DNA of 63,831 nucleotides, the filler included, from Xylographa opegraphella (lineage: Eukaryota): assembly GCA_022813865.1 (NCBI GenBank). It is 5 parts of 5 records of this genome, joined end to end, with 100 filler letters (N's around TTAATTAATTAA, not from the genome) between each part and the next. Parts side by side here need not be neighbours in the genome. Positions count along the whole stretch, not along the records: positions 1 to 14,851 come from JALDZX010000156.1; 4 more parts are not named here. One strand, 5' to 3'. The first letter of the stretch is position 1; each line of letters begins with the position of its first letter. The notes beneath the pieces were generated by a model. That model did not search any database. It was not told the DNA's origin and was given only the letters and a program-made list of their open reading frames with translations. This document shows positions 554 to 61,336 of this stretch, in pieces. The translations under genes and the position numbers were made by a program.

Positions 554-784
554 TGTAACGGCATGTTACATGGCACCTTAACAATTGATAGACGGAACGG
601 GACTAAAGCGCGTCCGGGACTCAGCCTAGTTCGAAAGCGGTTGGGAGTCTTGGCGTTAGCACTGTTTATTTTAATTTCTACGTGTATTACTAAACTTGCT
701 TCCTTATATTATTCTAGGTTGAAATCGCTCACCTATAGCTGTGGTTCTAGGCCTGCTTTTCTGGTGAGATAGCGAGCTGTAACA
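554..784 (+). mobile_element. Solo LTR, family A (231 bp, gypsy-type TGT.ACGG termini)
   Basis: Starts TGTAACGGC and ends CTGTAACA. Perfect 5-bp TSD TTAAA (549-553, 785-789). Partial near-identical copies at 28917-28978, 43083-43143 and 56841-56910. Strand is nominal. Confidence 0.9.
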
Positions 785-11914: not shown

Positions 11915-12106
11915 CTAAAAAATTATTTCGTTCTTACTAAATTTATATTTCTTTGGTTTAAAAAACAATTTTACTTTTTTTAAATATATAAAAACTTTTT
12001 GTATATGTTTTATATATTCTTTTGCTAATTTCAAATAGATAATTATATCGTTTAAATAAAGTACTATAATTAAATTTAAGTACGTTTTTAATACGTTGTT
12101 AATCAA
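11915..12106 (-). pseudogene. Gypsy reverse transcriptase relic
   Basis: INNVLKTYLNLIIVLYLNDIIIY...KLFFKPKKYKF matches the gypsy RT core (YLDDILIY...KPEKCEF) with G>A/C>T changes. Stops on both sides. Confidence 0.9.
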
Positions 12107-12792
12107 TATTTAATACGTTGTTAATCAATATTGAATAAGTAATTAATATATCAAATAATTTAAAAATTATAATTCAATATTTATTATATTCGTATTTATT
12201 TTAAAATATACTTTTTTATTTTAATCAGATTATATCCGTTTTTGAGATTAAATTTAATAAAAAAATAATTTTATTAAATTTGTTTCGTATTTCGCTTGTT
12301 TTTAATAATTAATATCGATTTTTAATAGTAATATTATTTAGTTTTTTATATTAATATAAAATCTCAAACTTCTATTTTTTAAATATAAATATTATAGAAT
12401 ATTTTATCAAGGATTTTAATTTTTATATAAATTTTTTTTAAACTTTCATCAATATATTTACGAAACTCTGGAAGTTCTTTTTTAATATATTATATATATA
12501 AATTTAAATATTACCTTTTTCCCTAGTTCGAGATTAATTCCATAATCCCAAGATTGGTATTTAAATAAGGCATTAAATTTATTCTCTTTTTAAAAAAGTT
12601 ATATTTATATTTTATATCTCTTAGGGATATTAAAAAATACCTTATTTTTTAAATTTAAATCTAAATTGTTTTATTAATCTTTATTAATACGTATCGAGTC
12701 GAATTCTCCAGTAAAATTATTTTTCTTCGTAAATAAAATTTTTATAATTTTAATCGATTTTCGATTTTTTTTATTTATTATCGTTCTTTATC

Positions 12793-12975
12793 TGTGACGA
12801 TTATGACATCAGTCACAAGTGATAGGGGTCGGGCTGGATCAGGACTAGCACCTTGAGTATATAGTCTTGCCCATGGAGCAGCCTCATCGCCTCTCCATCT
12901 TAATCTGGGTTGAAATCGTCCACCTAAAGCTTACGTTCTAGGCGTGCTTGTGTGGTGAGTTGATGAGCCGTAACA
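12793..12975 (+). mobile_element. Short LTR, family B (183 bp), inside gypsy pol
   Basis: TGTGACG...GCCGTAACA. Differs from 45330-45512 at only about 6 positions. Flanks (TTATC/TAAAT) do not form a TSD here. Confidence 0.88.
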
Positions 12976-28916: not shown

Positions 28917-28978
28917 TGTTACGGCTCGCTATCTCACCAGAAAAGCAGGCCTAGAACCACAGCTATAGGTGAGCGATT
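28917..28978 (-). mobile_element. Family A LTR, 3' part, cut by contig end
   Basis: Reverse complement of 723-784 with one difference. Confidence 0.9.
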
Positions 28979-29078: not shown

Positions 29079-30744
29079 GCGTGAGGAAGGAAGCTCCAAA
29101 TCAAAAAGCGCCCAAAAGACCCGCCCCGAATCCACCACATTAACTTTCTGTACAAATATATTAATATAAAAAATTTAATACTTTATATAAATTTTATTTA
29201 ATTAAATTATTTCAGCTCAACTCAACTCAATTTAAAAAAAATACAATTTAATTTTAAAAGAATTAACCCAGAGTAAATTAAATTGTTTATTGAATAATTT
29301 AGCCCAATTCAATTTATGTCGCAATATATTTATAATTATAAATTTGACTTCATAATATTATTATATAATTACGAATTTTGTAATTAAGCGCTTATTTTAC
29401 AAGTGATAATATTATTGACATTATTTAATTATTTAAAATATTAAAAATAGCTCGTTTATTTTATTAATTAAAAAATTTAGCTTTTTAGCGAATTATTATT
29501 TTACAAATCAAATTTAATATTATTTCGCAAAAAACTTTCATTTATTTTCTTATTTTATAAATATAAAAATAGTTTTTAATTAATATGTTTATTATTCCTA
29601 AATCGTGCAATATTTAAAAGTTTTTATATCACTATAAATAACGTGATTTTTTATTTTCCGAAAATTATTTTATTTTATTTTATTAAAGCCATTTTTAATA
29701 ATAATTTTTATATTTATCGTAATTTCTTCGATCGAAAATGCCATAATAATCCGAGTTTACCTTCGTTTCGAAACTTTTATTAAAATCGATGATTAACTCG
29801 TTCGATACGTTTTTTTATTCTTTAAAAATTTCGTGAAATAAATTATAATGGACAACGTTAATTTTACTAATTTTTAAGTTTATCGATTACCTCAAGCAAT
29901 ACGGGCAAAATCTTTAAAAAATTTAATTCAAAATTAAAATTAAACAGTTAATAAAATAACTTTTAAATTTAACGTAAATTTTTTTATTAAGTTATTTTAT
30001 ATTTAATATTAACACTTTTGCAGAAAATAAATATTAGAAGAGTTGTTACATCAGTAAAAAAAACGAACATTCGATCAAAAAATATACTTTTTACGCAAAA
30101 AGCAAATTTGTAAAAATAGCATATACTTTTTAATTTTTATATATTTTTTGTATATTTTTTCCGTATTTCATACGTTCAGTACGATTAGCAAGTTTCTGAT
30201 TAAATTAAAAAATTTAAAAAAACGTTTCAAAATGATTAATTCGCTTAAATAGATATTTTAGAATTATTAAAAATAAATAAAAAATTCATTAAGCAAAAAA
30301 CATTTTTCGAAAAAAATCTTTTGAATCCCTTTAAGCAGATCTTTTATTAAATTTATATAAATGATATCACTACGTAACTAGGTTAATTTTACGTAAAAAG
30401 TTTAAATTTTTTCAATTCTTTAAATTACGTTGAATATTTATAAAGTTACAGCGTTAGCGAATATTTACGAATAATATTCGTTAGTTTAAAATTTTAAAAT
30501 TTATTTTATTTTCAATTATTTTTAGTTATTGTTAACTAAATTTTAAAAACGTATTAAAACCGTATTAAAACCGTATTAAAAACGTATTTTAAACCTATTT
30601 TCCATATAAAAAAACTTTATCAAAAGAGTTAAAAGCAATTTTTTTATTAAACGTGCTAAACGTACTGAATATATTAAATACACAAAGAGCATACTTTTTA
30701 ATCGATTTATAAAATCTGGAATTTTAAGCAAGGATTCTTTTCGC

Positions 30745-32564: not shown

Positions 32565-32993
32565 TAATATAATTTTAAAATTTTTAATAACGCGTTGACA
32601 TTGAGAAATAACTTTAAAACAGGGTTATGAAGCAGGAAAAGAATGTTTTGCCCTAAAAAATATTATTGACATTTTTACTTGTTTTTTACGCATGGCTTTC
32701 GGGGCGAAAGCCTTTTTTTATAACGGGCATTTGTCGCAGGCGTAGGCTTGCCTTTCTTGCAAAAAAAGGCCTAGTTCGGGTTTAATTCGTGCCTGCCTGC
32801 CTAATTCGGGCCTGCGCTCCTGCCCTGATTCTGACAGGGCCTGTGGGCCTCCATATTTATAGCAGAGCTTTACAGCTCTTAAACACCATTCTTCTTACAT
32901 ACTATAATACACTACGTCTTCACGAGTACAGTTGTAGCATAATGCTGTCCATTGCCACAGCATTATTGATAGTACTGCATCTCCACTTTGAGG

Positions 32994-35900
32994 CTAATCA
33001 TCATCATCATCGGTTTCGTCCAGACTTAACCACGAGGATCTGCATTCGACGGCCTCTTTTCTGACGTGCCGTTTTGAGTCATCCAGAACTATCAAAATGC
33101 CTTTAGTAACAGCAACTCGAAATGGAAGCAAGGTCCTCTTTTCTAACTTGCCAGGGAGGCTTCTCAAGCATCGCGTGGCACTGTAGCGTGCTTTCTAAGT
33201 TTCGAATGAGCAATTTCCACTGGCTTCAGCGAATCTGCACACTTACCGGTGTATTCGATTTTGGATCTGCAGCACACTTTAGGAGCTGACTCACCAGATT
33301 AAAGATGTGTCCCTGTACAGCTATTGGATTTTCGTGGCAGATCATAGTAATTGTTTCGATACTGGCAGCTTTAACATCTGAGTCGTCGAGATATAGGCTT
33401 TGTAATAGTAGTGGAAGCAGAGTTTCGAGTTCGGGCAACAATACTTCAGGCGCGATGAACCGGAGTATCCCGGATAATGCTATCAATAAGTTTGACTTGA
33501 CCGTTGTGTCGGACTTCTTGAATGCTTTTGCGATCTCCGGCATACAAATATTGAATACTTTCTGGTTGGCCAAGATTCGGATCACGGCCCCATTTTCTTT
33601 AGAGACGATCTCATCTGGCGCTAGAAGCAGCACAAAGCCACGAGCTGCAGTGTTTCCGTGAATTTTGCTGTTCAACAGAGCTAGTAAACGATGTAGTAGC
33701 TCGTCTGTATCTGCCAGTTTGAGTATGAGCCCTTTTGCGATCCAAAAGACAGCGCGAATAGAATTTGTCGAAAGGTTGTTCGTTTGTAATAGGCCTATTA
33801 TTGATGACCATAGGATATCTGTTACATAGTGTAGACAATTATTTGGTGTGAACTTGTTGACAAGCAGTGCAGTCTGTTGCAAAAGTGAATCACGAATGAC
33901 GTGAGAGGTTTCAAATACCGACATTCGCACCAGATCGTTAAGAAGATCTGCCGAAGCAGGATAATGATAGGGTAGTGAAACCTATTGGGATTAGCGGCCT
34001 TGTCATACGATGATTGGTTGCATAACCAACGTCTTTAGCAACGCCCGCCAGAAGATAGGTTGAAAGAACCATAGTTCGTTTTTGAGTCTCTGACACATTC
34101 TGCCTGAAAGGTACCGGAACAAACATCACTCCATCAGAGAATAAAGTGTATACTTGTTGAGCTACGGATCGTTGCTTACGTGTATCCAACGTACGAACAG
34201 TCAAGCAACACAAACGGCCCAGTAGCTCCATCGTTCGGGTTTCGGTCAGAGTCATGGACAGTCCTACCCTTGTGCTAGCGATTGCTGCTCTGCTAAGGAT
34301 TCCAGCAATCTTGTCGAAATAAATACCCAGGTTAGGATCCGAGGTTAAACTTCGTTGATAAAAAACATAGTGCAGGGTTGAGAGTATTGCATGAGGATAG
34401 GATAGGGGTACGGAATTCAGCAAAATAATGTCTAGTCGGCTGAGCAGTCGTCGAATAAGCGTGTCAGAAGTGGACCGCTCGACACTGATGCGGGCTAGGG
34501 CTTCCAATGTAAATTTATAATCGTTATTATCTTTTGGCACAATCTCAGGGAGTGTGGCCATGAACGCAGGGAATGTAATGTCCAGTATTATGGCTGGCTT
34601 CATCATCGAGATGTCAACCAGGCCTTGCAACGCGGCATTTCTCAGGCCATCCGTCCCCAAGGTATTCTCAGATAGCACGATTTCGTCGAAGTATTGGACG
34701 GCCATTCCAACCTCATTCTCCTTCAAATAAGCTTGCAGGCAACAGAGAAGTAGAAGAGATTTCAACGCCACGACTCGGAACGAAACCTCCTCTTTTGCAG
34801 TGCTCATTAGTGCTTGGCTGAAAATCTCAAAAAGACTGTCCTTGAATGACTGTAAGGGATTCTCCGGGTTAGGGCGTTTCGCATTGGAAGCAACACCGTA
34901 ATAGATTTGCGTAGGCTTTAGGATTTCCAAGAGAGCCTCAAGCAGCGCCCTTTGTTTAGAAGTGCTGTTCGCATCCCAGTAAAGAGCTAACAGGTGTGGC
35001 ACGACTGACCTCACCACTAAGACTAGTGCCAAGGATGATGCAGTCCCGATTGAGTGGAGTATTTGACCTGCGGCCTTCGATTGCTTATGCAGTGGAGCCT
35101 CTAGATACTCACTACATTCTTTCATGATCGGTCTCATATAGGTTGCTAGAGGAGACTGCGGATCGGTAGAGGTTGGGCCATTACTAAGCCGCTCCGCGAT
35201 TGCTCTGATGGCTACAAGCGCTTCTTCCGCAACATCCTCTTCCTGAACATTGAGGATCTCGTATTTAAGCGAATCCCAGAAGATAGTTGAGTAAATGGTC
35301 ATGGTGGTGATGTCGTACGATGACACACATGCTGTGATCGTTTGCAAGACATCTTTCTTAACACCTGGAGACGAAGAGTCGAGTTTGTCAATTAGCTGTG
35401 GGAAGGCATAAGGTGCAAAGTACTGTGTTGCTGCGATACAACCGCGCAATCGAGACTTGAGGTCCTGTGCAGTGATTCCGTAAGGATCATCGGGTGGTGG
35501 TCGAAAGGTAATCGGAAAGTAACAGAAGACGGCATCGAAGAGATTCTGTGCGTGGTCGACGATATCCCATTCAACCATGATAACCTTTAGGATTGAAAAT
35601 ACGATCATCAAGTTCCTTGGATCTTTCTCTCCACTGACAAGGTCCACAATACCTACCAAGGATTCGCTATGCAGACTTTTGATTGCAGAACGATGCTTCG
35701 ACATCAATCCATTAAGAAATTCTAGGATCTGGAGCCTTTGGGGCTGTAGGCGGATCTGTAGGTCCTGGAAACGCTCTAGCATTCTATTGAGCATATTAGT
35801 ATTAAGATATGTACTACGCCGCAAGACGTATTGAGAGAAGTATCGTCTTCGCGATTCCTGCCATGCAATTTGAGAACCTAAGGACCTGAAAAAGTACAAC

Positions 35901-36334
35901 AAGGCTTGTCCTTAATTCACTTACTCACGCTCTTAGTACCATAATCGCCATATCTTTGGTGAATCGCTCAAGCTCTTGAAGCTTCGCGAGCCCATCGAGA
36001 GCACCGCCATCTTCGATTCTTTCACAGAGGAACTGACACAAGACATGTATTTGTTGCCGACTAAGGAATGTTGGGTCGAGGGCTTTAATGACTTGCGAAA
36101 GAAACGTGACTGCTCTCGAACGTAGTATGGCATCCTCATCAACAATATACTCCCCTAAGGACTGCACAATCGCAAGTAAAGTTAATTGCTGAGATTCCAG
36201 TTCTGCGGTGGACGTAAGCTTTCGAAGCACAAAAGAGAGGCAAGCTCTATACTTGACGCTGCTCCTCGGGCAATTACTGAAGCCTCTCCTTTGTCCCTGT
36301 CCACCGTAAGTAAATAGTTTCGCACATCAGACAT
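32994..36334 (-). CDS. MMS19: MMS19/MET18 cytosolic Fe-S cluster assembly targeting factor (multi-exon)
   Basis: GEKDPRNLM and FCYFPITFRPPPDDPYGIT motifs; C-terminal LDDSKRHVRKEAVECR; HEAT-like composition. ATG 36334 (MSDVRNYLL), TAG 32996-32994. GT-AG introns separate the ORF-track segments. Confidence 0.95.
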
Positions 36335-36683
36335 ATCTGCAGACGGGTTGCGAGGTTATAATATTATTCTGCAAAAAAACAGGGGGCATTTGGCCAAAAT
36401 CTGAAGTGTTGAGAATAAATTCCTGGAATTTCGTAAAGGCTTGGCGAGGTATTACTGTTTATTCGAGTTTTTGAAATGGAGTTAAAAATGATGGAAATGT
36501 TGTAATATAATGAATTCATTATAAAGAAATATTGTAAATCAATGATATATTAAAATTTATAAATTTCAATAACATATTTTAATTAAATTATATTATTATT
36601 ACGAATTTTAAACTCGTGATTTAAAATAATAATGTAAAATTTTACTCTTAAAATTTCGTAATTTTTATTTATGTTATTTATAT

Positions 36684-39578: not shown

Positions 39579-39762
39579 TGTTACGGCTCATCAACTCACC
39601 ACACAAGCACGCCTAGAACGTAAGCTTTAGGTGGACGATTTCAACCCAGATTANNNNNNNNNNNNNNNNNNNNNNNCTCCATGGGCGAGACTATATACTA
39701 AAGGTGCTAGTCCTGATCCAGCCCGACCCCTATTACCTGTGACTGATGTCATAGCCGTCACA
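39579..39762 (-). mobile_element. Solo LTR, family B
   Basis: Reverse complement of 45330-45512 with a small N gap. Perfect TSD ATTAA. Confidence 0.9.
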
Positions 39763-42922: not shown

Positions 42923-42982
42923 TGTTGAAAATCAGGGCGTTAGCAGTCTGTGTTGTTGGTCCTTTACTATAGCCGATTAGGC
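42923..42982. mobile_element. Family E LTR end (copia-type TGTTGAAA terminus), cut by contig end
   Basis: Exact reverse complement of 51530-51589. Confidence 0.82.
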
Positions 42983-43143: not shown

Positions 43144-43283
43144 GTTGCGATCCGCGTATCAAGCGCTTAATGAATATTATAATTAAAGTATTTTAATATT
43201 AAAATTTGATAAAAAAAATAAAATCCCAAGGGTCGTTAATAATTATTATTATATATTACAATATATATATATCTCGAATTTTT

Positions 43284-43602
43284 TGTAACGGTGGGGTTCT
43301 CTTAGACAAGGGGCAGAATAGTGACAGCGATTAAAAATGTTTAAAAAAGTAAAAGTGAAAGAGGTTATTTATTTAAAATTAGCTATTTCCTTCGATATAT
43401 AAATTAAATATAATCAAAATTTTCAGAACTTCTGCTATAATTATATAATAACCCCGTTATTATAATAATAATAATAATAGTCGTTTTAGTATCTTACGTT
43501 TATACTACGATTATTATTACTAACTATTCGATTTAGGCTATTTAATTGTCCGGGCTGCCCTCCAGGGTCTTACCCTATCATGGTACTTGACGGTCCGTGA
43601 CA
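43284..43602. mobile_element. Solo LTR, family C (319 bp)
   Basis: TGTAACGG...CCGTGACA termini with TSD TTTTT. GC-rich ends and AT-rich centre. Confidence 0.8.
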
Positions 43603-44651
43603 TTTTTGTACGTTTCACGTTATTTATAAAAAAGATTTTAATAAATTAATTATATTTTGCAGATTATACGTTAAATATACTTTTAGTAAACGATATAGAA
43701 CGTTATAATTTATTAATTAAATTTATATTTCATTTTTATAATAAAATTTACGTTTTGATTATGTAATTTACTTATTATAAATTATAAACTATTTGTATAT
43801 TTCTTTATATACGTAATACGTTTAACGGAGGTTTTTAATCAATTTATTTACTTATTATTTATATATAAACCGTGACGAAGCGCGTAATTAACGAGACTTT
43901 ATCGAAATATATTAATAAAATTTATGAAATATATTAATAAAATTTATATAATATTTAATAAAAATTTTATAATTTAATTTTTATTACCCTCGTTATCATA
44001 TTTCGTCGTTTAATAAACCCAGAGTTTTATTAATATAAAAGTTTTTTATTCTTTATTTTAATTACGTATTATATTTACGTAATTATAATACAAACGTTAT
44101 ATTTTAAATTTAATTATGAATTAACTGAAATAAAAATCGAATAATTTTAATAAACAAAATTTTTATTCGTAAACCCGCACGTTTTGCAATAACGTTTTTC
44201 GTTAAATTAATATAATTTAATTATTACGCTATCGCTTTCAATGAGCTCGCATTGAGTGTTATTACTGCGTTGCAGTAATAATAAAACGATGAATTATATT
44301 TTTACGCGATATTCGACGTTAATAATTATTTTTATAATAACGTGGCGATAAAATTTAATTAATTCAACAGAACGCGTTATTATAAAATACGCGAGTTCAT
44401 AAATAAAGAGTTTATTTATTGAAATTATTACTGTTTCATTTTCAGACACACTCGATTGTTATTTAATTTAATTTGCATTTAAATTTAAATTTTAACGCCT
44501 GCGTTATAGCTACGTTAATATAATACGTATTTGAAATAAAAAATAATTTTTTTAATATTTATAAAGTTTTAATTTACTGTGCGACGAAATATAATAATAA
44601 AAATAATAAAAATTAAATTATAAATATTTTGCTAATTATTATATAAATCTC

Positions 44652-44834
44652 TGTTAAAAGGTACGATGGGTACTGAAGCGCAGTGGTCATTCTAGCAGAA
44701 TATATGGGTAAACAAGTGTGTTGTATTAGCTATGAACAACTACGAGACTATATGCTCGCGCACTAGCGTCACCGGGCCTATGGCGGCCCGAGCTCTCGCT
44801 ATCCTGCAGGCAGGCCGGGACTCTATTTCTAACA
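44652..44834. mobile_element. Solo LTR, family D (183 bp)
   Basis: TGTTA...TAACA termini, perfect TSD ATCTC, normal GC inside an AT-rich tract. Confidence 0.88.
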
Positions 44835-45329
44835 ATCTCGTTAATATATTGTGGTAAAATCTCGTTAACTATGCGCTTTGCTGGCGTTTTATATATAAAT
44901 AATAAATGAATATATTTATTAAAAACTTTGGTTAAAACGTACTACGCGGGCGAAAAATTTTACGAAAAATTTACAAATTATAATAAATAAATTATATAAT
45001 AAAAATATAAATTTTATTATAAAAATATAAATTTAATTAATAAATTATAACGTAATACGTTATTTAATAAAAATGTATTTAACGCGTAATTTATAAAATA
45101 TTATCGATTTATCGAATTTTTTTTATAAATAACGAGAAATATATAGAAAACGTTAAAGAATATATACGCGAGTCATAATACATAATAATAATTATTAACG
45201 ATTTTTAAAATTTAATTTTTTTAATAAATTTTAACTTTAAAATATTTTAAATATAATATTTATTACGCGTTTGGTACGCAAATCGAAAATTTTAAATATT
45301 ATATTTAAAATTTTAAATTCGAGTATTTA

Positions 45330-45512
45330 TGTGACGGCTATGACATCAGTCACAAGTAATAGGGGTCGGGCTGGATCAGGACTAGCACCTTTAGTATATA
45401 GTCTTGCCCATGGAGCAGCCTCACCGCTTCTCCATCTTAATCTGGGTTGAAATCGTCCACCTAAAGCTTACGTTCTAGGCGTGCTTGTGTGGTGAGTTGA
45501 TGAGCCGTAACA
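45330..45512 (+). mobile_element. Solo LTR, family B (183 bp)
   Basis: TGTGACGGCT...AGCCGTAACA, perfect TSD ATTTA. Confidence 0.92.
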
Positions 45513-47401: not shown

Positions 47402-47746
47402 AATTTGTTATATATCGCAATATTTAAAATAAAAGAAGTATAAAACGAAAACGAATTAAAATAATTATAAATAATAAATATTACAAACTGATATGCATTA
47501 TATTAAATTGATTCACCAAATTATATGAATAAACTGTACGAGGTTAACTATAAACTTATTTTACTAAGGCGCGTCGTCATCATACGGCAGGTTCCAGAAA
47601 TGTCCTCACACGCCTTGTCCCCTTTACACAACCACGTTTATTACTGACAACGTACTATTTCCTCGGCCATTTAAAGACAAGTGTTTGCTCAGGATCTGCC
47701 CACAACAATTTGTTATAAGCTCGTATTGCATCCTTTCTGCACACCA

Positions 47747-48039
47747 ATGGTAAGGTGTTCAAAGCTGCGTGTTTCTGATATTCTACTAATTTACTGTAGA
47801 CGCAAACACCACAACAACGGAAAGCGAACGAGCGGTATGCTAAGCTGGAATCGGCGAAGCGGGGAAAACCAGAAAGTGCAATCAAGCAGAAGCAGAAGTT
47901 CAAGCAGCCTATATCGCCTTTGTGGATCGGTATGTCTACTTCTTCACCTGCGCCCACAAAGTCTTATAGTGAAGTAGGTCTACTAGTGTTTGTCCTGTGT
48001 GGTGGCCTGATTTTTGAGTTGATACGAGTTTTCTTTTGA
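47747..48039 (+). CDS. YSY6: RAMP4/Ysy6-family ER translocon-associated tail-anchored protein (64 aa)
   Basis: Exons 47747-47749, 47800-47929 and 47978-48039 with GT-AG introns give MTQTPQQRKANERYAKLESAKRGK...PISPLWIGLLVFVLCGGLIFELIRVFF*. Confidence 0.92.
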
Positions 48040-48566
48040 GCATGTCCTATTGATTGGTGGTATTCAGGAGCAGGTGTGCTAGAATTACGCATTGTAGTAG
48101 TAAGGACCTTCTGGTATTGATGGCTACATCTGGAACACTCTCGCCAGCAATATGGTTGATGCCTTCACAGTATCACTGTAGTCGATGTGCGGCGTGACTC
48201 CATTTTAATACCCCTCGGCAACAAAGGCCTCTGGCTCAAGCTCGTAAAGTTGCTTTGCTATCAGACCTCAACTTACATAAGCATGCAAGGTAGCATCTTT
48301 TATATTCCCAGGCGCGTCGGGTACAATTCTGAACCAGTATGACTTCCTCTGTCCAATCATTCTGTTTAGCAAACGACCTTGTCAGCGAAGCGTTCTACCT
48401 CAAGGGATTATTAGTACCTGCGCTTCCTTCTCCAACTTCCTAGAATGGACGTATATCCATAAAGTGCCACTTCCGACTCCTCTCCAAGATACAGAATCGA
48501 CTTCAATTGTTAAACGCCATAATTGATCGATCACTGGCCATGATTGACGTCTTCAGTTAGTTTCAA

Positions 48567-50454
48567 CTATTGTACCACTAATTCGTCTTGCTGAATCATT
48601 TCTGGCGACATCTCTTCCGGTAACACCCAGCTTGGGCCATACTTTAAGGTACTTCGTTCATTGCCCTGCGAGCCTCTTGGAGCAATTTTACCTGTCATTT
48701 CGGCGTATACCCGCAACCCTGCCTACATTGCGAGCTCTTTTGCCTGTGCCCTCAAAACCCTGGCTGCTTTATTAAACTCGGCCAGCTCCAGTCCTAGTCG
48801 TACACGCTCGGCCTTGGCCGTTTCGAGAGTTCCATCCTCTAGTACTCGCTCGCCGCGAAGATGAATCGGTTTTGCCGGTGTCACAAGTTCAGGCAAGGGG
48901 TCCATACCGATTGCTTGGCAGCGTTCTGCTGCACGCTCCCGTACAAGTGACTCTTTCTTGATATCAGCGGTCTCGATCGCTCGACGAAGTTTTCGCCGAA
49001 GCTTATGGTTGTAGTTTAAAGCTTCGTGATCTTGACCTTCACTTAAGTCCAGCTTGATGAAGTCTCCTGGATCCCCGTCATTTCGCACGCCTGTAGGCAT
49101 GATGTGAGCACTTTCCATCCCAGCGGCACCAGAGAGATCGACTCGTCTTTTGTTCCTGTTGATAGGATCGCTTTGCCCTCTAGACTTCACATCACTTAAT
49201 GAGCCAACGAGCTCAAGCGAATCAAAATCAACTTCAAGCCCTCTCATTCCAAGCGCTTTTGGCTTAATCTCAGCCACGCCTTCGGTGTTAGAGATTGTAA
49301 ATCCAACGCAGCAGAAATCTCGATAGCCACTTTCCTTTCCACGGCCGCAATCGCAACAGCGATTTTCTTACCTTCCTCGTCCTCGGCACTCTTTATTTTT
49401 GTCTTGTGTCTCTTCTCTTCCTCTGCAGTAAGATTAGTTGGGGGCCAATACCCACAGCAATTGAACTGACCTTTGATGGACTTCCAAGTGTACTTGAGGT
49501 CGCGATAGACTTTCCTTTACTCATCCCTTGCTGCACGTCTCTCAACTTTCCCAGATTGCTGTTTCGCCCTGAGTGCTTTTCTTGACGCTGCTTTCCGCTT
49601 CCTCGCTCTAAGCACCCTTCGCTCTATTTCCACATCAGGAAGATCCCATAAATCAAGCCAATTCTCCTCGCTGCCTAGTATCTGTATGCCTTTGGGGATT
49701 ATAGGCTTCGGAGGCGGTGGCTGTGGTTCGAATTTGGCGAATTTTCTCTGCTGAGATTTGCTCATCTTCGCATCCGGAATTACATACTGACTAATATTTA
49801 TTTTCGTCCATCGTGATGGGTTTATATCAGACCCAAGACTTGATTTCGTGTCCATAGAATCGAACTGCTCCGCCTTCCCTTTCTGAGCTGTAGTAATGTC
49901 CAATGGCGTCTTCGATCCTGCCTTAGGTGATTCTCTACCTTCTCACCTGCGAGTAGTCTCCAATGATGATATTGAGCCATCCGCTTGTATTGCGACCGGA
50001 CCTATGTTAAACATAGCACCTGTAGGATCGTGTATCGCTGCAAGCCGCTGCGCTTGCTCGCGGGCCTCATTATGTATTACCCGCGCTCACTTTCGATAGC
50101 TCGTAGCCGGTTCCGCTATGCATTCTTGGTATATTTGTCGGGGTTGCTTGTCTATATAGATTGATTAGCTTTATATTTTTCTTGTCCGCCACAATACTGA
50201 CCATGCGCCGGAGGAGTGTAGCATTGAGCTTTCGCTGCTTCTTCTCGTCGGCCTTTCGGTTCCGTTTCTCACCTCGAGAAGCCACACGGTACTCCCGTAG
50301 GCGTTGCTTTCTCTCCCAGTCGGGATCTAATGCGAGTGTCAGTTAATGCAGCATGTCACTTACACCCCTTTGGAGCAGCATTTCACTTACCTTTTGACCT
50401 TTTGGCAAGAGCTGGTATGGGAACAGCAGACTGCCACTCCATTGTGCCTTGCAT
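48567..50454 (-). pseudogene. Disabled gene for a K/R/E-rich uncharacterised fungal protein
   Basis: ATG 50454 and three clean GT-AG introns. The coding frame is broken by stops (50116-50118, 50077-50079, 49943-49945, 49517-49519, 48723-48725) and apparent 1-nt deletions (near 50070 and 49305). Protein-like sequence continues past each lesion. Confidence 0.75.
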
Positions 50455-51290
50455 AGCAGTAAAAATCGGAAGCCGGGGGAAAAATTCTCTATCCAGAGAT
50501 CGCGAAAAAGTTTACGGAAAATGTTGGCGCCCTCAAGAGTGACCAACAAGATGATCCAGCGTGAGACGACCTCTCGCTAAATATGCAACGAGCTAAACTT
50601 GAAAAAGAAATAAGTACTGATCGGAGCGGAAATACAGCATCACTAGCGCTCGAACTTCGATTTGGGACCCCCTCATCCTAATAGCAGTTACGCCGCAATA
50701 GTGCTTCGAAAAAAGAAATCAATAAATTTTTAATCTGTAAAGAACGAGCAATATTTGCTTTGAACACATTTATTTATTCAATACGTTTAATCATTTAATC
50801 ATAAAATATAAAATATTTAACAATTTTTAAAAAATAATTATTTTATTTTATTTTATATTTTAATAAAAAGTAAAAAAATTATATATTTTGTATTTAAAGT
50901 TTGAAGAATTGAATATATTAGTAATTTTTTAACGGCTCGAAATAATTATTTCGATTAAAGTTTTTTATCGACGCTCGTAATTAATTTTTAACGCGAGTCG
51001 AGTTTTTGTAATAATTATTAAAATTATAAATTGCGCGAAATGACGCGTATAACGTTTAAAATTTGAAATTTAAAATTATAAACGAATTGCATTGAAAAGA
51101 AAATTCGTAAATTTAATATTTGAATTTGTAATAATAAATTTAACGAAAAATTTTCGTTAATCTTTTAAAGTTTTTAATTAATATTATTTAATTGTAATTA
51201 TTATTTTCACTCGATATTGTTAAATTCTTGCGGGTATAATACGCGAATTTAGTATGAATTTTATTATGAATTTTACGTTATATACATATT

Positions 51291-51400: not shown

Positions 51401-51589
51401 TATTGAAACTAATCACTAGGCACAGGTAATGGCAGCAGGTAACAGTGCATTGCTTAATCACTAAGAAGGTGAAGAGTTCTTCTGGAGACGGGGCTCCANN
51501 NNNNNNNNNNNNNNNNNNNACTAAGCTAGGCCTAATCGGCTATAGTAAAGGACCAACAACACAGACTGCTAACGCCCTGATTTTCAACA
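51401..51589. mobile_element. Short LTR, family E (about 189 bp, with N gap)
   Basis: TATTGAAA (from TGTTGAAA)...TTTCAACA termini; right end identical to 42923-42982. No TSD; the gap may join different copies. Confidence 0.7.
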
Positions 51590-52453
51590 TAAAATATAAA
51601 AAACTCTTTATTTTTATAATCGTTTAACGTAATTTAAAAAAAACGTAATTTTTATTTTAATACCGAATTTTAAAATTTTTTAATATTAAATTTTAATTTC
51701 CTCAAACGCGTAACAGGCGTAAGTTGTACGAAATAATCGATTATAAAAATTTATATTAATTTAAAAAGTACGAAATCGTTTACTTTAAAAATTTACTTAA
51801 CGTAATCGAAGTAAAATGCGTTTTTTATATTGATATTAAATTTTAAAGTTTTATTTTATACCGGTGTAATTTTTTTTTAAAAAAGTTAAAATTAATTAAT
51901 TAATTAATAATGTATTAATTACGACTCGAATATAATTTTACGACGTATATTTTATTATAATCATAAAAAATTTAAACGATTATTAAAAATAATAAAAATA
52001 TAATAAACGCAGAATTAATAAATTATTAAAAACGATCGTTATAAATCAAATTAAAAATTAAAAAAAGAGATAATTATAATATTTACGATATTTATTAATT
52101 ATACGTAAATCGAACTTGTCAATAACGTAAAAAGTATATATTTTTATACTTTCGTTGAATAACTTTTTTGTTTATATACGGTATATAAACATTAATAGAT
52201 TAGTCTCGTATCAGCCTCGCTAAGGGTTTACATCGGAGTTAGAATAATCAATCAATCAATCAAATGCTAAACGCTTTAATTAGAGCGTGCGCCCGGCTTT
52301 AAACCTACGAAAATATTCGATAGGTTGCAATCTATCGAAAAAACAGTAAGTTGAATTTACTGAAACCTACTGAAAGATTGCTGAACAGGCCCTAAGCTAC
52401 TCTTGTACATGCGATTGACTATTGTTAGAGATCTATCAACTTCCAGTATCAGG

Positions 52454-53466
52454 ATGACAATAGCAGCCTCAGCCATCCCGCGCTTCCTGCTTCCACAGCT
52501 GACATGGAGGAAAGTTATACCATGTACCCTTGGCGAGACTGTCGGTCCACTACAAGCACGCAAGCACCGAGACTACAATAGGCTTCAGCGGCGGGACAAG
52601 TTACAGTTATCAAAGCCTACAGAGTACATGCGACAGCAGTACTGGAGCATAGTAAGCCGTCTAGGAGTGTGGTATTTTCCCGGCAATGTCGGCCCAGGTG
52701 TCTCGAAACTCTCTCGGGCCTTATCTCGGTCAACACAGCGAAGTCTTGTGAGACCAACCTCGTTCCTCAGACTTGTTAGCCATCGTTCTTTCCATACAAG
52801 TCCGGCTCTGTATCGTGATCACCACTTCGATACTTTGAAGTTTGTGCAGCGTCTGAAGGATGAAGGGTTCTCGGAGGAGCAGGCTACTGCTATGATGAGG
52901 GTTTTATCTGATGTAATTGAAGAGTCGATACAGAACCTGACTCGTACGATGGTCTTACGGGAAGGTAGTAGAGCGGTCCCTGTCAACTCGCGTAATACTT
53001 GACTGACGAGCATTCAGATGCCGAACGCTCGATCTATACCCAAAAAGTGGACTTCACCAAGCTCCGCTCTGAACTTCTTGCTACCGATTCCGCAGAAATC
53101 AACCTTACCCGCGCTTCCCACGAGCGCCTCACTAACGATCTCGCAAAATTAAATTCTCGACTTCGAGATGAGATTAGCCGCACACAAGCCAGTGTGAGGT
53201 TAGACCTGAACTTAGAGAAAGGACGGATTCGCGAAGAAGCGAATGTACAGGAGTTGAAAATCAAGGAGACAGAGACGAGAATCGAACAGGAGGTGGCGGG
53301 GCTACGGGAGAGAGTGGAAGGAGTGAAGTTCAGTACTTTACAGTGGCTAATGTAAGTACATCGGCTGTTTGTAATAGTCAAGAGGGTGTGCTGATGTGCT
53401 CATCTTAGGGGTGTGTGTACCGGCACGGCTGCTTTGATACTGGGGGCGTGGCGCCTGTTGATGTAA
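52454..53466 (+). CDS. FMP32: Mitochondrial DUF1640/CCDC90-MCUR1 family protein
   Basis: HHFDTLKFVQRLKDEGFSEEQA, VRLDLNLEKGRIRE and C-terminal TM LQWLMGVCTGTAALILGAWRLLM. Exons 52454-52964, 53018-53351, 53409-53466. An alternative upstream ATG lies at 52409. Confidence 0.9.
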
Positions 53467-53706
53467 GAAACTAAGAGATCTAGGGAGGTAAACGAAATAC
53501 GTTCAACAACCAATCCTTACAGTCTATAACTTTTCGTTTGCTATTCGGAATATACCATGTGCCAGCTACTGCAGGCGTGCAGTGCAAGTCGGCATATATT
53601 TCCCCATCTTAATGTCGTAAAGCGCTTCAAGGTGAAACCTGCAAAACACACTCCCCCAAATACCCTTCCAACAAATGTCCAGTAAACTGTCGTCGCTTCC
53701 TCATGC

Positions 53707-54754
53707 CTACAGGTCAAACAAATCCTTCAGTAACCGCATGGTATCCTCCGGACCTCCAACTGCATGCCCAACCGTTCTCGCATCTTCGTAAATCTCGTAA
53801 TCATTTCCTCCCTCAAAGGTCTTGTCCCCGAAAAAGTGGATGGTGGTAAATTCGACACCTGAACTCGCCTTCTCCTCTTCCAGATGCTTCAAGCAGTACG
53901 TCTTGTCCCAACCTGTGGGAAAGACATCAAAGGAGATCTTACCACCGATGGAGTATGTAAGTCCGTTATCAGGGAATTTCTCTCTCAACGCTAAGACGAA
54001 GTCCTGACGGATGTTATGCTGTTTGTCGTAAGTTTCGTATGCGTTGCGTTCAGCGATTGAGGCATTGCGGCCAATTGGGGATACGTTGATCATACCGTTC
54101 CTGTAATAATAATTAGCACGTTTAGTAACAGTTGGCAAAGCTACGGGAGAGACCGCGGTTCGATCAACGACTGATCCTAGTCTCCATGTCCATTGCGTGA
54201 ACAAATCAGAAGACAATAACGTACCGGAATTCCACAAAGGTACCCCTCTTTATCGGTAACTTCAGCCCGGCCACATACACCAGACAAAAATTGACCAGCT
54301 CCTGGTACTTCTCCTCACCCAGCCACTCAATGAAGCTGTTTCCCATAAGCGGCTTTCCCATACGGTATGCGGTGAGCCCGTTCTCCGCGAAGCAGAAATC
54401 AAATAGAGCAGTAACAGGTACCGCAGGTGTTCCAAGCTGTTCCTGCTGCTTAATGAGATCGGAGCCACCAACGAACCCTATGGCGCACTTATGCCGTAGT
54501 GCGGAGAGCAGACTAAGCGTTTCGGGAGACGCAGCCTGTCATGATATTCTTAGTCCAATGCATTGGTCAACAACCTGAAGGCAGTTTGATGTCGAAGGCA
54601 TAGCAAGTAAAGAGATACTTTAAATGGGAAGATAGCAAGGGAGAGCGCGTACTTGGCGGGCTAGGGTGAGGGTGCCGTCCACGTCGAAGAGGCAGATTGT
54701 GTTCTTCAAAGGGCGAGCTTCGAGAGGCGTAATCACGCTGGCTACTTCGGTCAT
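53707..54754 (-). CDS. SEC53: Phosphomannomutase (HAD family)
   Basis: [53 protein letters not shown]; two GT-AG introns. Confidence 0.97.
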
Positions 54755-54893
54755 GATTGAGGAATTCGCAATAGGAGAAGGTCCAACAAGTAATGATGTA
54801 TCGAGTAGAAACTTGGAAGAAATCCTCCGGATTATATCCCTTATCGTGGTCGTTCTGCAACAAACTTAGGGCCTCGGCACATACAGGGGCAGT

Positions 54894-56740
54894 ACGTTAG
54901 AGGTTCCGTCGGGTCCGTGCACGGCTCGGGGGTATGCACACCCCCCCCCCTTCTTTTACCACTTCATGTTTGCAAGCATTGCGCAACAACCACCTATTCA
55001 ATTAAGTTCATNNNTGGAAATATATTTATAGAGATCAATGCGAAAATAATGCGCGCTTTAGATTAGGAATCAAATCGCCTTGAAGACGTCAATTGCCTCC
55101 CGTATCGTGATGACATGATTTCGGACCCCTCCATTTCCTGACCTCGATTTCCTGCATTTCCTTCCTCTTTGCGTTGCTTTGACCTTGCACAGCTCTTCTG
55201 AAGGTGTTTACTGACCTTTTGAATATCCAATTCGAGTTGCCTGTCCACTGCACGTGCTTCCAAAGCTTCCTTCCGAAGGCGTATTTGTTCATCCCGCTCC
55301 ACCCTTCTTTGAAGCGCAGCATTTTCCCGCGCTGCTTTCCGCTGGGCAATCAACAACTGCTTCTTTTCTTTCGCTTGCTTCTTGCGTTGCTTTTCATCCA
55401 TCTTTTGAAGCTCCTCGGCGTGTTTGGCGTCTTGTATTTGCTGGCGACGTGCTCTGGCTTCCACAATTTTCGTAGGACTGAAAAAATGAGCTTTAACTTC
55501 ATGATCTGATCCAGTCAGATCAAATAAAGGCTTTCCTCTTATTCTTTTACCCTTCTCGATGAAAACTGTGTGTTGTAGATCCGCCACCTTCGCTTCTAAG
55601 ATCGTATTGCGTGCCTGTAGATGATCGACCGTGTTAATAAGTTTCCTCGCTTCCTGAGTTACTGCCTTGCCAATTGCGCTCTGTACAAGACCCCTAACCT
55701 TCCTCCAATCAGGATTAGATATTGCTGAAGACCCCGTAGTGCTTGATGAGGGTCTTTCATTCGGTCTAACCTGATCAAGCACTCGATCAGGGTTGAAAGG
55801 TTGTAATCCTGTTTTTTCCCACCCACTTAATACGTTCTTTTCCACAAATGCACGCTGATAGGCCGGCCAGAAGAGTTCGAAAAAGGCTCTTTTGGTAATT
55901 GTCGATAAGCCCGCAGTCCTGGCGATCCAATTGGTCAATTCCTGGCTGTAGTAGTTGGCCAATGGACTGAATAGGCTCACGTCCAGGGGTTGAAGTCGGT
56001 GAGTTGAATGCGGCGGATAGACCGCAACGAGGACCTTATTTGCATCACACCACTCTAGGAACTTCCAATTAACGTGACTATTATGTCCGTCCACGAAAAG
56101 AAGCCGCCAATCGCGTGCAAGACGGGCTTTTGGCTTCGAATACCTATCGAACACCCCAGTAAGCCATTCGTAGCCTAAATTCTCGTTGGTCCAACCAGTT
56201 TCTGACGAAGCGAAAAAGCAACATTGCTCTTTAGGATCAAATCTATCAAGCCACGTATCCTGAATGTTACCGGATTGAGCTTGATAAATAATAGCCGGTG
56301 GTAAAGCAGTCCCATCCATACAGCACGTAGCCATTAGGGTTATCCATTCCCTATTACCAGATTGGCCAGCACCTTTCAAACGACCTTTCCGAAGCTCGCT
56401 TACTTTACAAATCCTTCGAGTCTTTGGTAAAACCCCAATTAGGAAGCCCTTTTCGTCCATGTTATAGACGTTTTCAGGCAGGAACTCGTATTTGACCATT
56501 TTTTCCTTAATCTAGATGTAATTAGCCTGATTCCTTAGCTTAATAGGGTTACTTACGAGCCTGAAATATTCTGTATAATCATATAAGTTATCTGCTCGCT
56601 TGCGGTTTAGGTCAAACCCTGATAGGAAGCAAGATGACAGTTCCCCGTGGGTCGATTTGATAAAGCGATTGACCCAACCATTTCCAGGACTTTTGCCACT
56701 GATATCAAAAGCAAATCTACGCACCATGCGTGGTGTAGGG
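54894..56740 (-). mobile_element. Fot1/pogo (Tc1/mariner) DNA transposon, 5' end lost at contig end
   Basis: TA target followed by the (A)CGT terminus at 54893-54897; transposase CDS inside. Confidence 0.88.
55063..56740 (-). CDS. Fot1/pogo DDD transposase (CENP-B HTH + DDE_1), 5' partial
   Basis: PGNGWVNRF, NMDEKGF, LLFVDGHNSH, HRLQPLDV. Intron 56556-56512 (GTAAGT...CTAAT...TAG) joins YFRL to IKEKMVKYEF. No stops. Confidence 0.93.
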
Positions 56741-58120: not shown

Positions 58121-59034
58121 TTTATACGTATATATAGCGTAATTTTTTAATTTATAATATTTTTTTTATCATAACGACGATTTTTTTATTTTTTTCTTTC
58201 ACACTTTTAACGTAAATTTATATTAATTTTTTTAATTCTTAAATTTTTCATTATATTAATATTTTTTCAGTTTAAATATAATAAATTTTTATAAATATAA
58301 ATTTACGAGAAAAATAAATATATTCGTTTTTAATACGTTAATTTGAATCGTTTAATACATTTTTGTAACAATTTTTAAATATTTATTTTAAATAACTGCC
58401 AGCTCTTGATTTATTTATTTTTTAAATTTTTTAAATTATATTAAATAATAAAATCGTAGAATTACGTTAAACGTATAATTATTAAATATATTTACCTCGT
58501 TTTCGGTAATTTTACGTTTTGTATAAATATCGATAACTTGCTTAAAATCAATAATGAAATCGTTATTTTTTTCGATCTCGCGCAAATAAAGATTTTACTT
58601 TAATTAATCGTTTATTTGAAATTTTATTTATTGTATTAAAATCGTATAAAACGTTAATTCATATTTCGTTTAATAATTGCTTGGCAATTACTTAACAATT
58701 TATTAATGATTTCTTGGCGAATATAATTTTCACTTTAATATAACGATTTTCGAGTTTTAATAATAAATTTTTTTTATTTTTTCAACATAATTCAATTGCA
58801 TTTAGCGAATTCTTTAAATTTCGCAAAATTTATAAATTTTTACATTAATCAGCAAACTTGATTATGATTATTTAACTGATTCGGTCATAACCGTCAATGT
58901 ATCGAACGATCACGCTATTTCGTAATGGAACAAAATTCACCCCAATAGTAAATCACGTTTTCTATTCGTCTTAGGCTTCCGGGTTTATTGTTTGAAGTTA
59001 TCACAAATCGGGAAGCATACATAAAAAGGTGGAC

Positions 59035-59635
59035 ATGTCCTTGACCGCGTCGAAAGCTGACAAGGCTTTCCAAATCAGGTCTTTAGTATGTATCATAATC
59101 TTTTGAGAAAACAACTTTGTTAATGAGCGCTGAACAATGCTGAGCTATGTCCCTCTCGAAGTTTCGATCTTTACTCCGGCAATCGAGCCAATTCGCTGCA
59201 TACAATTTCCGGGAGTATGCAAAACGGAGGACAAAGGATTCATTTCATGAAAATAAGTGCGAGGCAGACGAGCGAAAAGTGCAAGACTTCATGCAACAGG
59301 GTTTGAAGGAGCTGCAGATGATGAAGGTAAGCGGATGGCCGTCACTGCCTTTTCAAGGTCGACTCCTTCCCATTCGACAAACTTTACGGCTCACCGACAG
59401 CGAATACTCAGAAGTTGACGTATATGGTATAGAGACAAACCGTTGTAAGCCAGTTCTTCCACCTGGATCGATTGGTTGTGGAAGGTGGAAATGCAGTAGG
59501 TCCACTCTCCTTGAAGCACTGCACTGGGTCGTTGTTGACAATAGCTCTCTGCAGGGAAAGCAAACAGATGACCAGGGAGGTATAATACGGCAGACCGAGG
59601 AAAACGCAAATCGCAACTTTGAAGGCCGAGAATGA
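59035..59635 (+). CDS. ISD11: LYR-motif Fe-S biogenesis factor Isd11/LYRM4
   Basis: Four exons give [45 protein letters not shown]...[33 protein letters not shown]...*. Confidence 0.95.
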
Positions 59636-61336
59636 TTACCGACGCCGGCATTCAGTCAGAAAGTTACACAATACTACGCACTTGATGATCGGTCTTCTGC
59701 AGAGAAATCATCCCTTTGATAGAAATGTATATGAAAAAGGGACTGTTGGTGTGTTGGGGCATGCACAGAGTCATTACAACGTCTCTCTGCCAGATGACGA
59801 TGTGGTACTCAGGAGCTGGAAGTTTGCACCAACTGTGCTGAGTAAAATAAAGGGATGATACCGAAGGGTATGGGAACGAACATTCGATTTATATTGAGAA
59901 TTGATCTTGCTGTTCTCACGAACAATGTTATCAACCTTAATCGCTGTACTATTATTAATTGATATATTTATCACAATGCAGAAGGACACAAAATGTAAAA
60001 AATTTAAAAAATGTTGAAAATATAATAAATGTCAAAATGTAAAAAGTAAAAAAAAAGTAAAAATTTATAATTATATGAAATTTATATCTAAATAAACGAA
60101 AATCATTTGTTAATATCGAGTTTTAAATCGAATTGAATAAATTCATTATTAATATTAAAAGATCGACTGGTTAAAAATATTATTTATATATTTTAATTTA
60201 TAATATAAAAATTGTATTTTAAAAAATTATAAATCAATTTATAAATTAAATAAATATTAAAATAAATATTATTTATCAAAATATATTTTAAATTATTTAT
60301 AAATTATATAAAAGTTGTTTTGAATTTACAATAAAATGCTAAAAATACGTAAATAAATTATACATTTTATTGAAAATTAATAAAGTATTAATTTTATTAT
60401 TTCATTTTATTATTATTATAATAATTTTATCGTGTTTTTGTAATATTGATTTTAATCGATTTATCGAAAAAATTTACTTTTTGAATTTATAAACGTATAT
60501 TTGTCGTTGTCATTACGTTATTTTATATATTTATATTAATTCATTTATTTATTCAATCGTTTTCGTAAAAGGGTATTTTCGTTATTATTACGATAAAATA
60601 ATATAATTAAATTTAATAATATAAAATACTTTAATTTTAATATAAAAAATATTGATAAGATTATTTTAATTAAAAGGTATATATTTTATAAAAACGTATA
60701 TATTTTTATTAATAAATTTAAAGATATAATAAAAATTAAAAGAAACAAAGTCGTATTTGAAACCTTTTTTCATATATTTTCAGAAAATAATATAAAAATA
60801 ATATATTATAAAAATTGTTTTAATAAAAAAACTTTTAAAAATAGCCAATTTGAAATTTATTTAATAAGATTTAATGAAATAATGTGAAAAACGAATATCA
60901 ATCGCGTTCGTGGTTTTACAATTTAAAATTTTCAAGTATAAAAAAATTAAAAATAAATTTTTTTTACATTTTTATATTGAAATAATAGTTAAATATACAA
61001 ATATCGTATAATTAATGTTCAAATATAATAAATTAATCGCGGTATAAAATAATTTTAAATTCAATTTTAAAATATAAATATTAAAATTAAAAATAATACG
61101 ATAATACGATAATTTTCAATTTTTTAAACGAGAAAAAATATTTTTTAAAATAGAACAATTGAAAGAAATTGGAAAATTAATATAAAATTAATATTTATTT
61201 TAATTTTAACTTTAACTTTAACTTTTTTTATTTTAATTAATTTTAAAATAATATTAGCAATAACAAACGCGCTGAGAAAAATTGAAGACATTAAAAAAAT
61301 AGTTAAACAAACTATTCGATTAAATATTAAAGAAAA

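What the first reader, a model, noticed from the sequence alone, without database searches (positions are those of the whole stretch)
554..784. Population of short, RIP-escaping solo LTRs with perfect TSDs and no visible parent element
Seen: five short TG...CA units carry exact 5-bp TSDs (554-784 TTAAA, 39579-39762 ATTAA, 43284-43602 TTTTT, 44652-44834 ATCTC, 45330-45512 ATTTA). Further whole or partial copies lie at 12793, 28917, 42923, 43083, 51401 and 56841. They keep CpA/TpG and near-normal GC inside hosts whose long repeats are mutated to very high AT. No internal domain is attached to any of them. Known: RIP acts poorly on short repeats. Inference: either LTR-LTR recombination excises new insertions before RIP reaches them, or these roughly 180-230 bp units are mobilised as integrase-dependent mini-elements below the RIP size threshold.
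Basis: partly seen in the sequence, partly recalled or inferred. Interest (0 to 1): 0.72.

Follow-up and report, generated by a model that had tools for sequence, protein, structure and literature searches.

The report
Solo LTRs with assembly-hidden parents
The short GC-rich units are ordinary leftover end-repeats (solo LTRs) of five fungal retrotransposon families whose parent elements exist but are collapsed or cut off in this assembly; they likely stay unmutated because they are short and young, a pattern already described in Podospora.

Summary
The five units and their exact 5-bp duplications are real, but they belong to four different LTR families (A-D; the copy at 51401 adds a fifth, E), and 'no visible parent' is an assembly effect. 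The window is several contigs joined by linkers, and four of the 'partial copies' are contig ends. Each family has LTRs attached to internal sequence elsewhere in G000. Contigs of run X1 hold unmutated parents at roughly 14 times (A) and 7 times (B) single-copy depth. Solo:full ratios of about 5-7:1 resemble Podospora crapaud (about 8:1), where unmutated solos and excision before RIP are already published. One of the five units (43284-43602, 319 bp) is itself heavily mutated. One by-product: family A's parent is a 1.68-kb element with a gag-like frame and no pol, a likely self-priming site and a polypurine tract, the layout of plant TR-GAG elements. The scan noted a gag-only element before in another fungus (e1-9988486).

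The parts
554..784 (+). Family B solo LTR (231 bp, Ty3/Gypsy), exact 5-bp TSD TTAAA, unmutated
   Evidence: empty sites in C74, C10; parent C42:2268-8562; depth about 7x in run X1
12793..12975 (+). Family A LTR (183 bp), full length, no TSD; flanks map about 1.2 kb apart in one old Gypsy host (likely inter-LTR deletion or assembly misjoin)
28917..28978 (-). 3' 62 bp of a family B LTR at a contig end
29079..29139 (-).
39579..39762 (-). Family A solo LTR, exact TSD ATTAA, unmutated
   Evidence: (six empty sites)
42923..42982 (+). 5' 60 bp of a family E LTR at a contig end
43083..43143 (+). 3' 61 bp of a family B LTR at a contig start
43284..43602 (-). Family C solo LTR (319 bp, Ty3/Gypsy), TSD TTTTT, heavily mutated (53 C>T/G>A, 1 reverse)
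   Evidence: mutated full-length parents C199:4745-11300 and C21 with RT between the LTRs
44652..44834 (-). Family D solo LTR (183 bp), exact TSD ATCTC, unmutated
   Evidence: empty site in C93; attached LTRs 180/183 and 181/183 identical; four identical 5' ends with internal sequence
45330..45512 (+). Family A solo LTR (183 bp), exact TSD ATTTA, unmutated; parent is a 1.68-kb element with a gag-like frame and no pol
51401..51589 (-). Family E LTR (189 bp, Copia, TG...TA ends), full length, no TSD
   Evidence: identical at 166 of 166 comparable positions to the 3' LTR behind a stop-free Copia RT
11924..12118 (-). Broken RVT_1 remnant of the old Gypsy host next to the 12793 LTR

Best explanation
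The units are solo LTRs of several Ty3/Gypsy- and Copia-type retrotransposon families whose parents are present in the genome, and they likely arose by recombination between the two LTRs of an inserted element, which would leave one LTR between the original 5-bp duplication. Shown: TSDs and empty paralogous sites; near-identical LTRs attached to internal sequence with priming-site and polypurine-tract motifs; parents that run into contig ends or appear only as high-depth contigs; heavy C>T/G>A load in LTRs of mutated parents against almost none in most solos. Inferred: recombination as the route; RIP as the mutator; escape because a lone 180-230 bp unit is a poor RIP substrate and because many insertions are younger than the last RIP round. 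Family A's parent is a 1.68-kb element with a gag-like frame and no pol, which would need reverse transcriptase and integrase in trans, most likely from family B (inferred).
For: Parents. A: C88:7809-9485, LTR-leader-gag-like frame-PPT-LTR; matching 3' pieces at C158, C166, C174 and 5' ends at C122, C213. B: C42:2268-8562 with TSD ATAAT/ATAAT and RT inside. C: C199:4745-11300 and C21. D: four identical 785-bp internal starts ending at contig ends, plus a PPT-bearing 3' LTR. E: four 3' ends 99.9-100% identical over 1,290 bp with stop-free RVT_2 and PPT. Run X1: unmutated A internal contigs at depth 2,287-2,579 against 150-186 for single-copy contigs; unmutated B contigs at 1,112-1,230 against 143-169, across gag to pol. 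Exact terminal-pattern counts: A 109, B 72, E 31, giving about 5-7 solos per full copy (my arithmetic). Mutation load: B TSD solos 13 C>T in 16 copies against 25-34 per attached LTR of mutated parents; A 35 in 37 solos. Block census of 571 kb: 23 of 24 A copies carry 4 or fewer C>T, and 11 of 14 unattached B copies 3 or fewer. The same pattern and explanation are published for crapaud.
Against: Recombination itself was not observed; no isolate pair shows a full element and a solo at one site (only one run holds this DNA). Contig depth is a rough copy estimate from one run that is probably the assembly's own sample, and the tool warns it is not a copy number. Open reading frames of the high-depth B parent were not seen. 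Size and age cannot be separated: about 14 A and 7 B full copies are also unmutated. Some short unattached copies are mutated (1 of 24 A; B with 7, 22 and 26 changes; 2 of 7 F). 76 of 171 full-length copies lack an exact TSD and only 21 of them are attached LTRs, so other processes (inter-element recombination, misjoins) contribute. No pol was found for D. The C88 element has no matching TSD.
Confidence: 0.9

Rival explanations
1. Age alone: the solos are unmutated only because they, like their unmutated parents, were inserted after the last effective RIP round; length plays little part.
For: Unmutated full-length A and B parents at about 14x and 7x depth; E copies essentially identical to each other (0 C>T in 9 TSD solos); most TSDs with mutable C/G are exact.
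Against: The C88 element belongs to the young A subfamily (LTRs 93-96% identical to the window copy) yet its 3' internal part has 36 C>T at 196 sites against C158, so mutation ran while A was active and solos stayed almost clean. Diverged subfamilies (A 79-88%, B 76%) keep GC 0.47-0.52. The mutated share rises with length (183 bp 1/24; 231 bp 2-3/14; 256 bp 2/7; 317-319 bp 1 of 2 TSD solos), though numbers are small.
Confidence: 0.3
2. One reading: single 180-230 bp LTR units are themselves copied and integrated by a helper integrase as mini-elements below the RIP threshold.
For: Solos outnumber full copies; each unit has both integrase-facing ends and a 5-bp TSD; sequence alone cannot exclude it for any single copy.
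Against: All five families have attached LTRs; for A, D and E they are 97-100% identical to the solos. Priming site and PPT lie outside the LTR, so a lone LTR lacks the signals for its own reverse transcription (established LTR biology). The ratio matches crapaud's 1,155 solo/fragment to 150 full copies (arithmetic on passages).
Confidence: 0.03
3. Gene conversion from unmutated copies restores solos after mutation (the second option in the crapaud paper).
For: Proposed in PMC10787394 section 11; the C solo at 43284 has better-preserved ends than middle.
Against: Attached LTRs of mutated parents are not restored. Most solos have 0-2 C>T with no patchwork of mutated tracts.
Confidence: 0.07

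Closest known systems
crapaud and grenouille solo LTRs of the Podospora anserina complex (Westerberg et al. 2024, PMC10787394; abstract, passages and sections 11-12 read)
   Same: Solo/fragment LTRs mostly unmutated with a minor mutated class; LTRs of full copies either clean or heavily mutated; about 8 solo/fragment per full copy; small size and excision before RIP offered as the cause.
   Different: LTRs here are shorter (183-231 bp against 339-443 bp), several unrelated families show it together, parents are hidden by a fragmented assembly, and the mutation context is CpT/CpC/CpA rather than mainly CpA.
TR-GAG elements of plants (Chaparro et al. 2015, PMC4350172; abstract and passages read)
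   Same: Family A's parent is under 4 kb, has two LTRs, priming site and PPT, one gag-like frame with a zinc knuckle and no pol, and leaves solo LTRs.
   Different: Fungal host under RIP-like mutation; likely self-priming rather than tRNA-primed; the paper's main text does not mention fungi (0 hits); transcription untested here.
Self-priming Ty3/Gypsy elements Tf1 and Tj1 of fission yeasts (PMC4600332, passages read)
   Same: In A and B the sequence just behind the 5' LTR is complementary (10 and 11 nt) to a site inside the same family's LTR; 3 of 2,000 shuffles reach that length for each.
   Different: The transcript start was not mapped, so pairing with the RNA 5' end is inferred; A lacks pol.
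TRIMs (terminal-repeat retrotransposons in miniature; definition from a search listing abstract)
   Same: Short LTRs and non-autonomy (family A).
   Different: No closely spaced LTR pair around a short non-coding domain was found; the shortest paired element is 1.68 kb and coding.

Membership tests
Solo LTR of an LTR retrotransposon | TG...CA ends flanked by a target-site duplication, inserted at an otherwise empty site | tested here: met
   5 of 5 exact TSDs; empty paralogous sites with gap -5 for 4 of 5
Solo LTR of an LTR retrotransposon | Same LTR found attached to internal sequence with priming site and PPT | tested here: met
   A, B, C, D, E all have attached copies; identity 97-100% for A, D, E
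Solo LTR of an LTR retrotransposon | Formed by LTR-LTR recombination (full and solo alleles at one site) | not testable with these tools
   Only one run holds this DNA
RIP-escaping short repeat (crapaud pattern) | Solos carry far fewer C>T than LTRs of mutated full copies | tested here: met
   B: 13 in 16 TSD solos against 25-34 per attached LTR; census. Not met for the 43284 unit (53 changes)
RIP-escaping short repeat (crapaud pattern) | Mutator is RIP (RID-dependent, repeat-targeted, CpA preference) | tested here: inconclusive
   Repeat-restricted C>T/G>A excess is shown, but CpT and CpC are hit as often as CpA; three cytosine-methylase loci exist and were not typed
TR-GAG (family A parent) | Under 4 kb, two LTRs, priming site and PPT | tested here: met
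   1,677 bp at C88:7809-9485; leader complementarity
TR-GAG (family A parent) | Single frame coding for Gag, no pol | tested here: inconclusive
   No room for pol in 1,312 bp and the same 3' junction at C158 and C166; Gag identity rests on a CX2CX4HX4C motif and Pfam hits below cut-off (DUF4939 E 0.0011, zf-CCHC E about 0.01); a pol-bearing variant is not excluded (6 of 50 loose ends shown)
TR-GAG (family A parent) | Whole element inserted with its own TSD, in several copies | tested here: inconclusive
   The one assembled whole copy has no matching TSD; about 14x depth suggests many copies
TR-GAG (family A parent) | Transcribed and mobile in trans | not tested
   No RNA run on record among the three listed
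TRIM | Two short LTRs around a short non-coding internal domain | tested here: not met
   Close same-strand pairs checked (C122, C6, C28) were separate solos with their own TSDs or unrelated ends; the shortest paired element is coding
Parentless LTR-sized mini-element | No internal-bearing parent with the same LTR | tested here: not met

The most novel reading that the evidence does not exclude
Family A is an active fungal gag-only, self-priming retro-parasite. It carries its own Gag, unlike the Gag of its likely helper (family B), shares B's U5 end, tract type and priming mode, and outnumbers that helper about two to one. By shrinking to 1.7 kb and collapsing quickly to 183-bp solos it spends little time as a RIP target, and it has become the most common LTR among those counted in this genome.
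Probability: 0.4. Interest if true: 0.45.

Novelty: new member of a known kind. Interest (0 to 1): 0.2.

Why it matters
As proposed, the finding is a known pattern plus an assembly artefact: 'parentless' repeats in fragmented assemblies often mean collapsed parents. The useful residue is family A. A gag-only element in a fungus with RIP-like mutation, with a candidate helper in the same genome, would let one test how non-autonomous elements with their own Gag borrow enzymes, and how element length sets exposure to RIP (183-bp solo, 1.7-kb parent, 6.3-kb helper side by side).

Tried and rejected
Close LTR pairs as TRIMs: C122, C6, C28, C37 and C241 pairs were separate insertions or opposite-strand neighbours. 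An intact Gypsy RT in the assembly: of the 21 RVT_1 matches listed, the only stop-free one is telomerase; the unmutated B parent showed up only in run contigs. An '88% subfamily' of E: an artefact of N positions in the query; comparable positions are identical. E 5' LTR with a priming site: 0 exact matches, which proves nothing in this assembly. A Gag as a derivative of B Gag: no tblastn hit at 1e-3, and two stop-free A pieces found only A loci; B's knuckle-like motif differs; sensitivity is low because assembled B copies are mutated. Single-mismatch TSDs as proof of RIP after insertion: too few, and 4.8% of random flank pairs have one mismatch. Summed depth over LTRs as a copy count: unusable. 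Papers on fungal gag-only LTR elements: none found by two searches (0 papers; 1 unrelated), and the 18 TR-GAG listings were plant papers by title; this library lacks most subscription journals and I read no supplements. PMC3441728, PMC12543289 and PMC5445492 (passages only) gave no gag-only case and no length threshold; the RIP length threshold is recalled, not read. One search left out hits covering under 80% of the query or with transversions at 20% or more of positions, and its blocks were chosen as AT-rich or RT-bearing contigs, not at random.

Full report
Setting. The window is fungal DNA with single genes (MMS19, phosphomannomutase, a LYR protein) in blocks of 10-25% GC. It is not one molecule: several contigs are joined by N-flanked linkers, and the genome tool places only bases 1-14851 on contig C64 of G000, an assembly of 24.7 Mb in 241 contigs.

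Observation. All five units have TG...CA ends and the stated exact 5-bp duplications. Random flank pairs match in 173 of 29,070 cases, while 95 of 171 full-length copies sampled across the genome have an exact duplication. For 554, 39579, 44652 and 45330, other copies of the host repeat carry the empty site with one copy of the 5-mer. These four have GC 0.44-0.50 in flanks of 0.11-0.21. The fifth, 43284-43602, has GC 0.31 and differs from the highest-GC solo of its family by 53 C>T/G>A changes and one reverse change, so it did not escape. The units fall into families A (183 bp), B (231), C (319) and D (183), and the listed copy at 51401 adds E (189); A and B share about 87 bp at 77%. The 'partial copies' at 28917, 42923, 43083 and 56841 stop at contig ends. 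12793 and 51401 are whole but lack a duplication.

Parents in the assembly. A: C88:7809-9485 is a 1,677-bp element with two A LTRs, a leader, a stop-ridden gag-like frame with a zinc-knuckle motif, and a polypurine tract; it has no matching TSD. The same 3' junction recurs at C158 and C166, a truncated piece at C174, and 5' ends with the same leader at C122 and C213. B: C42:2268-8562 has TSD ATAAT/ATAAT, a broken RT, and LTRs of GC 0.35 and 0.29. C: LTR pairs about 6.3 kb apart with RT between them at C199 and C21, with a polypurine tract and, at C199, a duplication with one G/A mismatch. D: four 5' LTRs followed by the same 785 bp, each running into a contig end, and a 3' LTR behind a polypurine tract at C208; no pol was seen. 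E: four contig ends, 99.9-100% identical over 1,290 bp, carry a stop-free Copia RT, a tract and the 3' LTR. Window solos match attached LTRs at 179/183 (A), 180-181/183 (D) and 166/166 comparable positions (E).

Parents missing from the assembly. One run (X1, stored as contigs, probably the assembly's own sample) holds this DNA. Laid on the C88 element, it shows contigs that differ mainly by T>C and A>G (82 of 119 listed places), that is, an unmutated version. Their depth is 2,287-2,579 from leader to the end of the gag-like frame, against 150-186 for single-copy contigs. Laid on the C42 element, it shows an unmutated version at 1,112-1,230 through gag and pol, against 143-169. I read these as about 14 A and 7 B copies collapsed out of the assembly. 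The tool warns that depth is not a copy number, the open frames of those contigs were not shown, and only 6 of 50 loose ends were listed for A, so a pol-bearing A variant is not excluded.

Ratios. Exact terminal patterns occur 109 (A), 72 (B) and 31 (E) times, with 0 control matches. After subtracting attached LTRs this gives about 5-7 solos per full copy (my arithmetic, lower bounds on both sides). Crapaud has 150 full copies in a set of 1,305 repeats, about 8:1 (passages).

Mutation load. TSD solos carry 35 C>T in 37 A copies, 13 in 16 B, 3 in 9 D and 0 in 9 E; attached LTRs of mutated B parents carry 25-34 each, while LTRs of unmutated parents carry 0-1. Those sets come from best hits to clean queries, so I repeated the count on 571 kb of large blocks with mutation-tolerant probes. 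There, 23 of 24 A copies have 4 or fewer changes, 11 of 14 unattached B copies 3 or fewer (the others 7, 22, 26), and 5 of 7 copies of a sixth family, F (256 bp), 1 or fewer. The mutated share rises with length, but numbers are small and mutated solos may come from mutated parents. The context is CpT and CpC at least as often as CpA, with CpG largely spared, unlike the CpA preference described for RIP (PMC12543289 passages). Three cytosine-methylase loci exist and were not typed.

Mechanism. Shown: insertion with TSD into old mutated repeats, parents sharing the LTRs, and a mutation load that follows the state of the attached element. Inferred: excision by LTR-LTR recombination, and escape through small size together with youth. 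Mutation ran during A's activity, because the C88 copy has 36 C>T at 196 sites against C158, yet most full copies are still clean, so size and age cannot be separated here. Westerberg et al. 2024 report the same pattern and propose excision before RIP (section 11 read).

Family A's parent. The leader behind the 5' LTR is complementary over 10 nt to A's own LTR, downstream of a TATATA box; B shows the same over 11 nt. Each is reached by 3 of 2,000 shuffles, and cross-family pairing is 7 nt or none. This resembles self-priming in Tf1 and Tj1 (passages); the transcript start is unmapped. Gag identity rests on the motif and on Pfam hits below cut-off. No similarity to B's Gag was found. The layout fits the TR-GAG definition (under 4 kb, one gag frame; abstract). 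B is the likely helper through the shared U5 end, tract type and priming mode (inference); F, with a stop-free Gypsy integrase at three contig ends, is another candidate. Two paper searches found no fungal gag-only case, but the library is partial, and the scan noted one earlier in another fungus (unchecked).

Verdict. Observation partly confirmed; routine solo LTRs with parents hidden by assembly; the phenomenon is published. The gag-only parent of family A is a new member of a known kind. Interest 0.2.

Noticed in passing
window 51401-51589; G000 family E: Family E LTRs end in TA instead of CA in all 31 exact terminal matches, including those behind a stop-free Copia RT, and many still have exact 5-bp TSDs; older relatives end in CA. 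A RIP-type change at the integrase-facing end seems to have been propagated by an active copy.
   Followed up: partly
L213:1-785 (G000 C13; also C48, C68, C147): Family D's internal start holds a frame of at least 190 aa with a weak C2H2 zinc-finger match (E 7e-5, below cut-off) rather than a recognisable Gag, and its one assembled 3' end shows no RT or RNase H; the class of this parent is open.
   Followed up: partly
window 29079-29139; L205:1-2000: A sixth LTR family (F, about 256 bp) appears to have 4-bp duplications in most copies seen, and a stop-free Gypsy integrase at three near-identical contig ends.
   Followed up: partly
window 12793-12975 and 51401-51589; genome sample: About a third of full-length LTR copies have neither a TSD nor internal sequence. 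At 12793 both flanks belong to one old Gypsy host about 1.2 kb apart, suggesting deletions between LTRs or assembly misjoins.
   Followed up: partly
window 43144-45329: The host of the C and D solos is one long fold-back: with both units left out, about 1.63 kb matches its own reverse complement at 70%.
   Followed up: partly
AT-rich blocks of the window and attached LTRs: The repeat mutator prefers CpT and CpC at least as much as CpA and spares CpG, so standard CpA-based RIP indices read low here.
   Followed up: partly
window 32600-36500, 47550-50600, 52300-56600, 58850-59950: Single host genes or small gene groups (MMS19, phosphomannomutase, LYR protein, CCDC90-like) sit as GC islands inside mutated repeat blocks.
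   Followed up: no
window 55063-56511: A 482-aa stop-free frame with a DDE_1 domain (pogo/Tc1-type transposase) near a contig end, apparently unmutated.
   Followed up: no
L207:1540-2694 (G000 C177): A stop-free 385-aa Copia RT-like frame in gene-rich DNA with no LTR of families A-E beside it.
   Followed up: no
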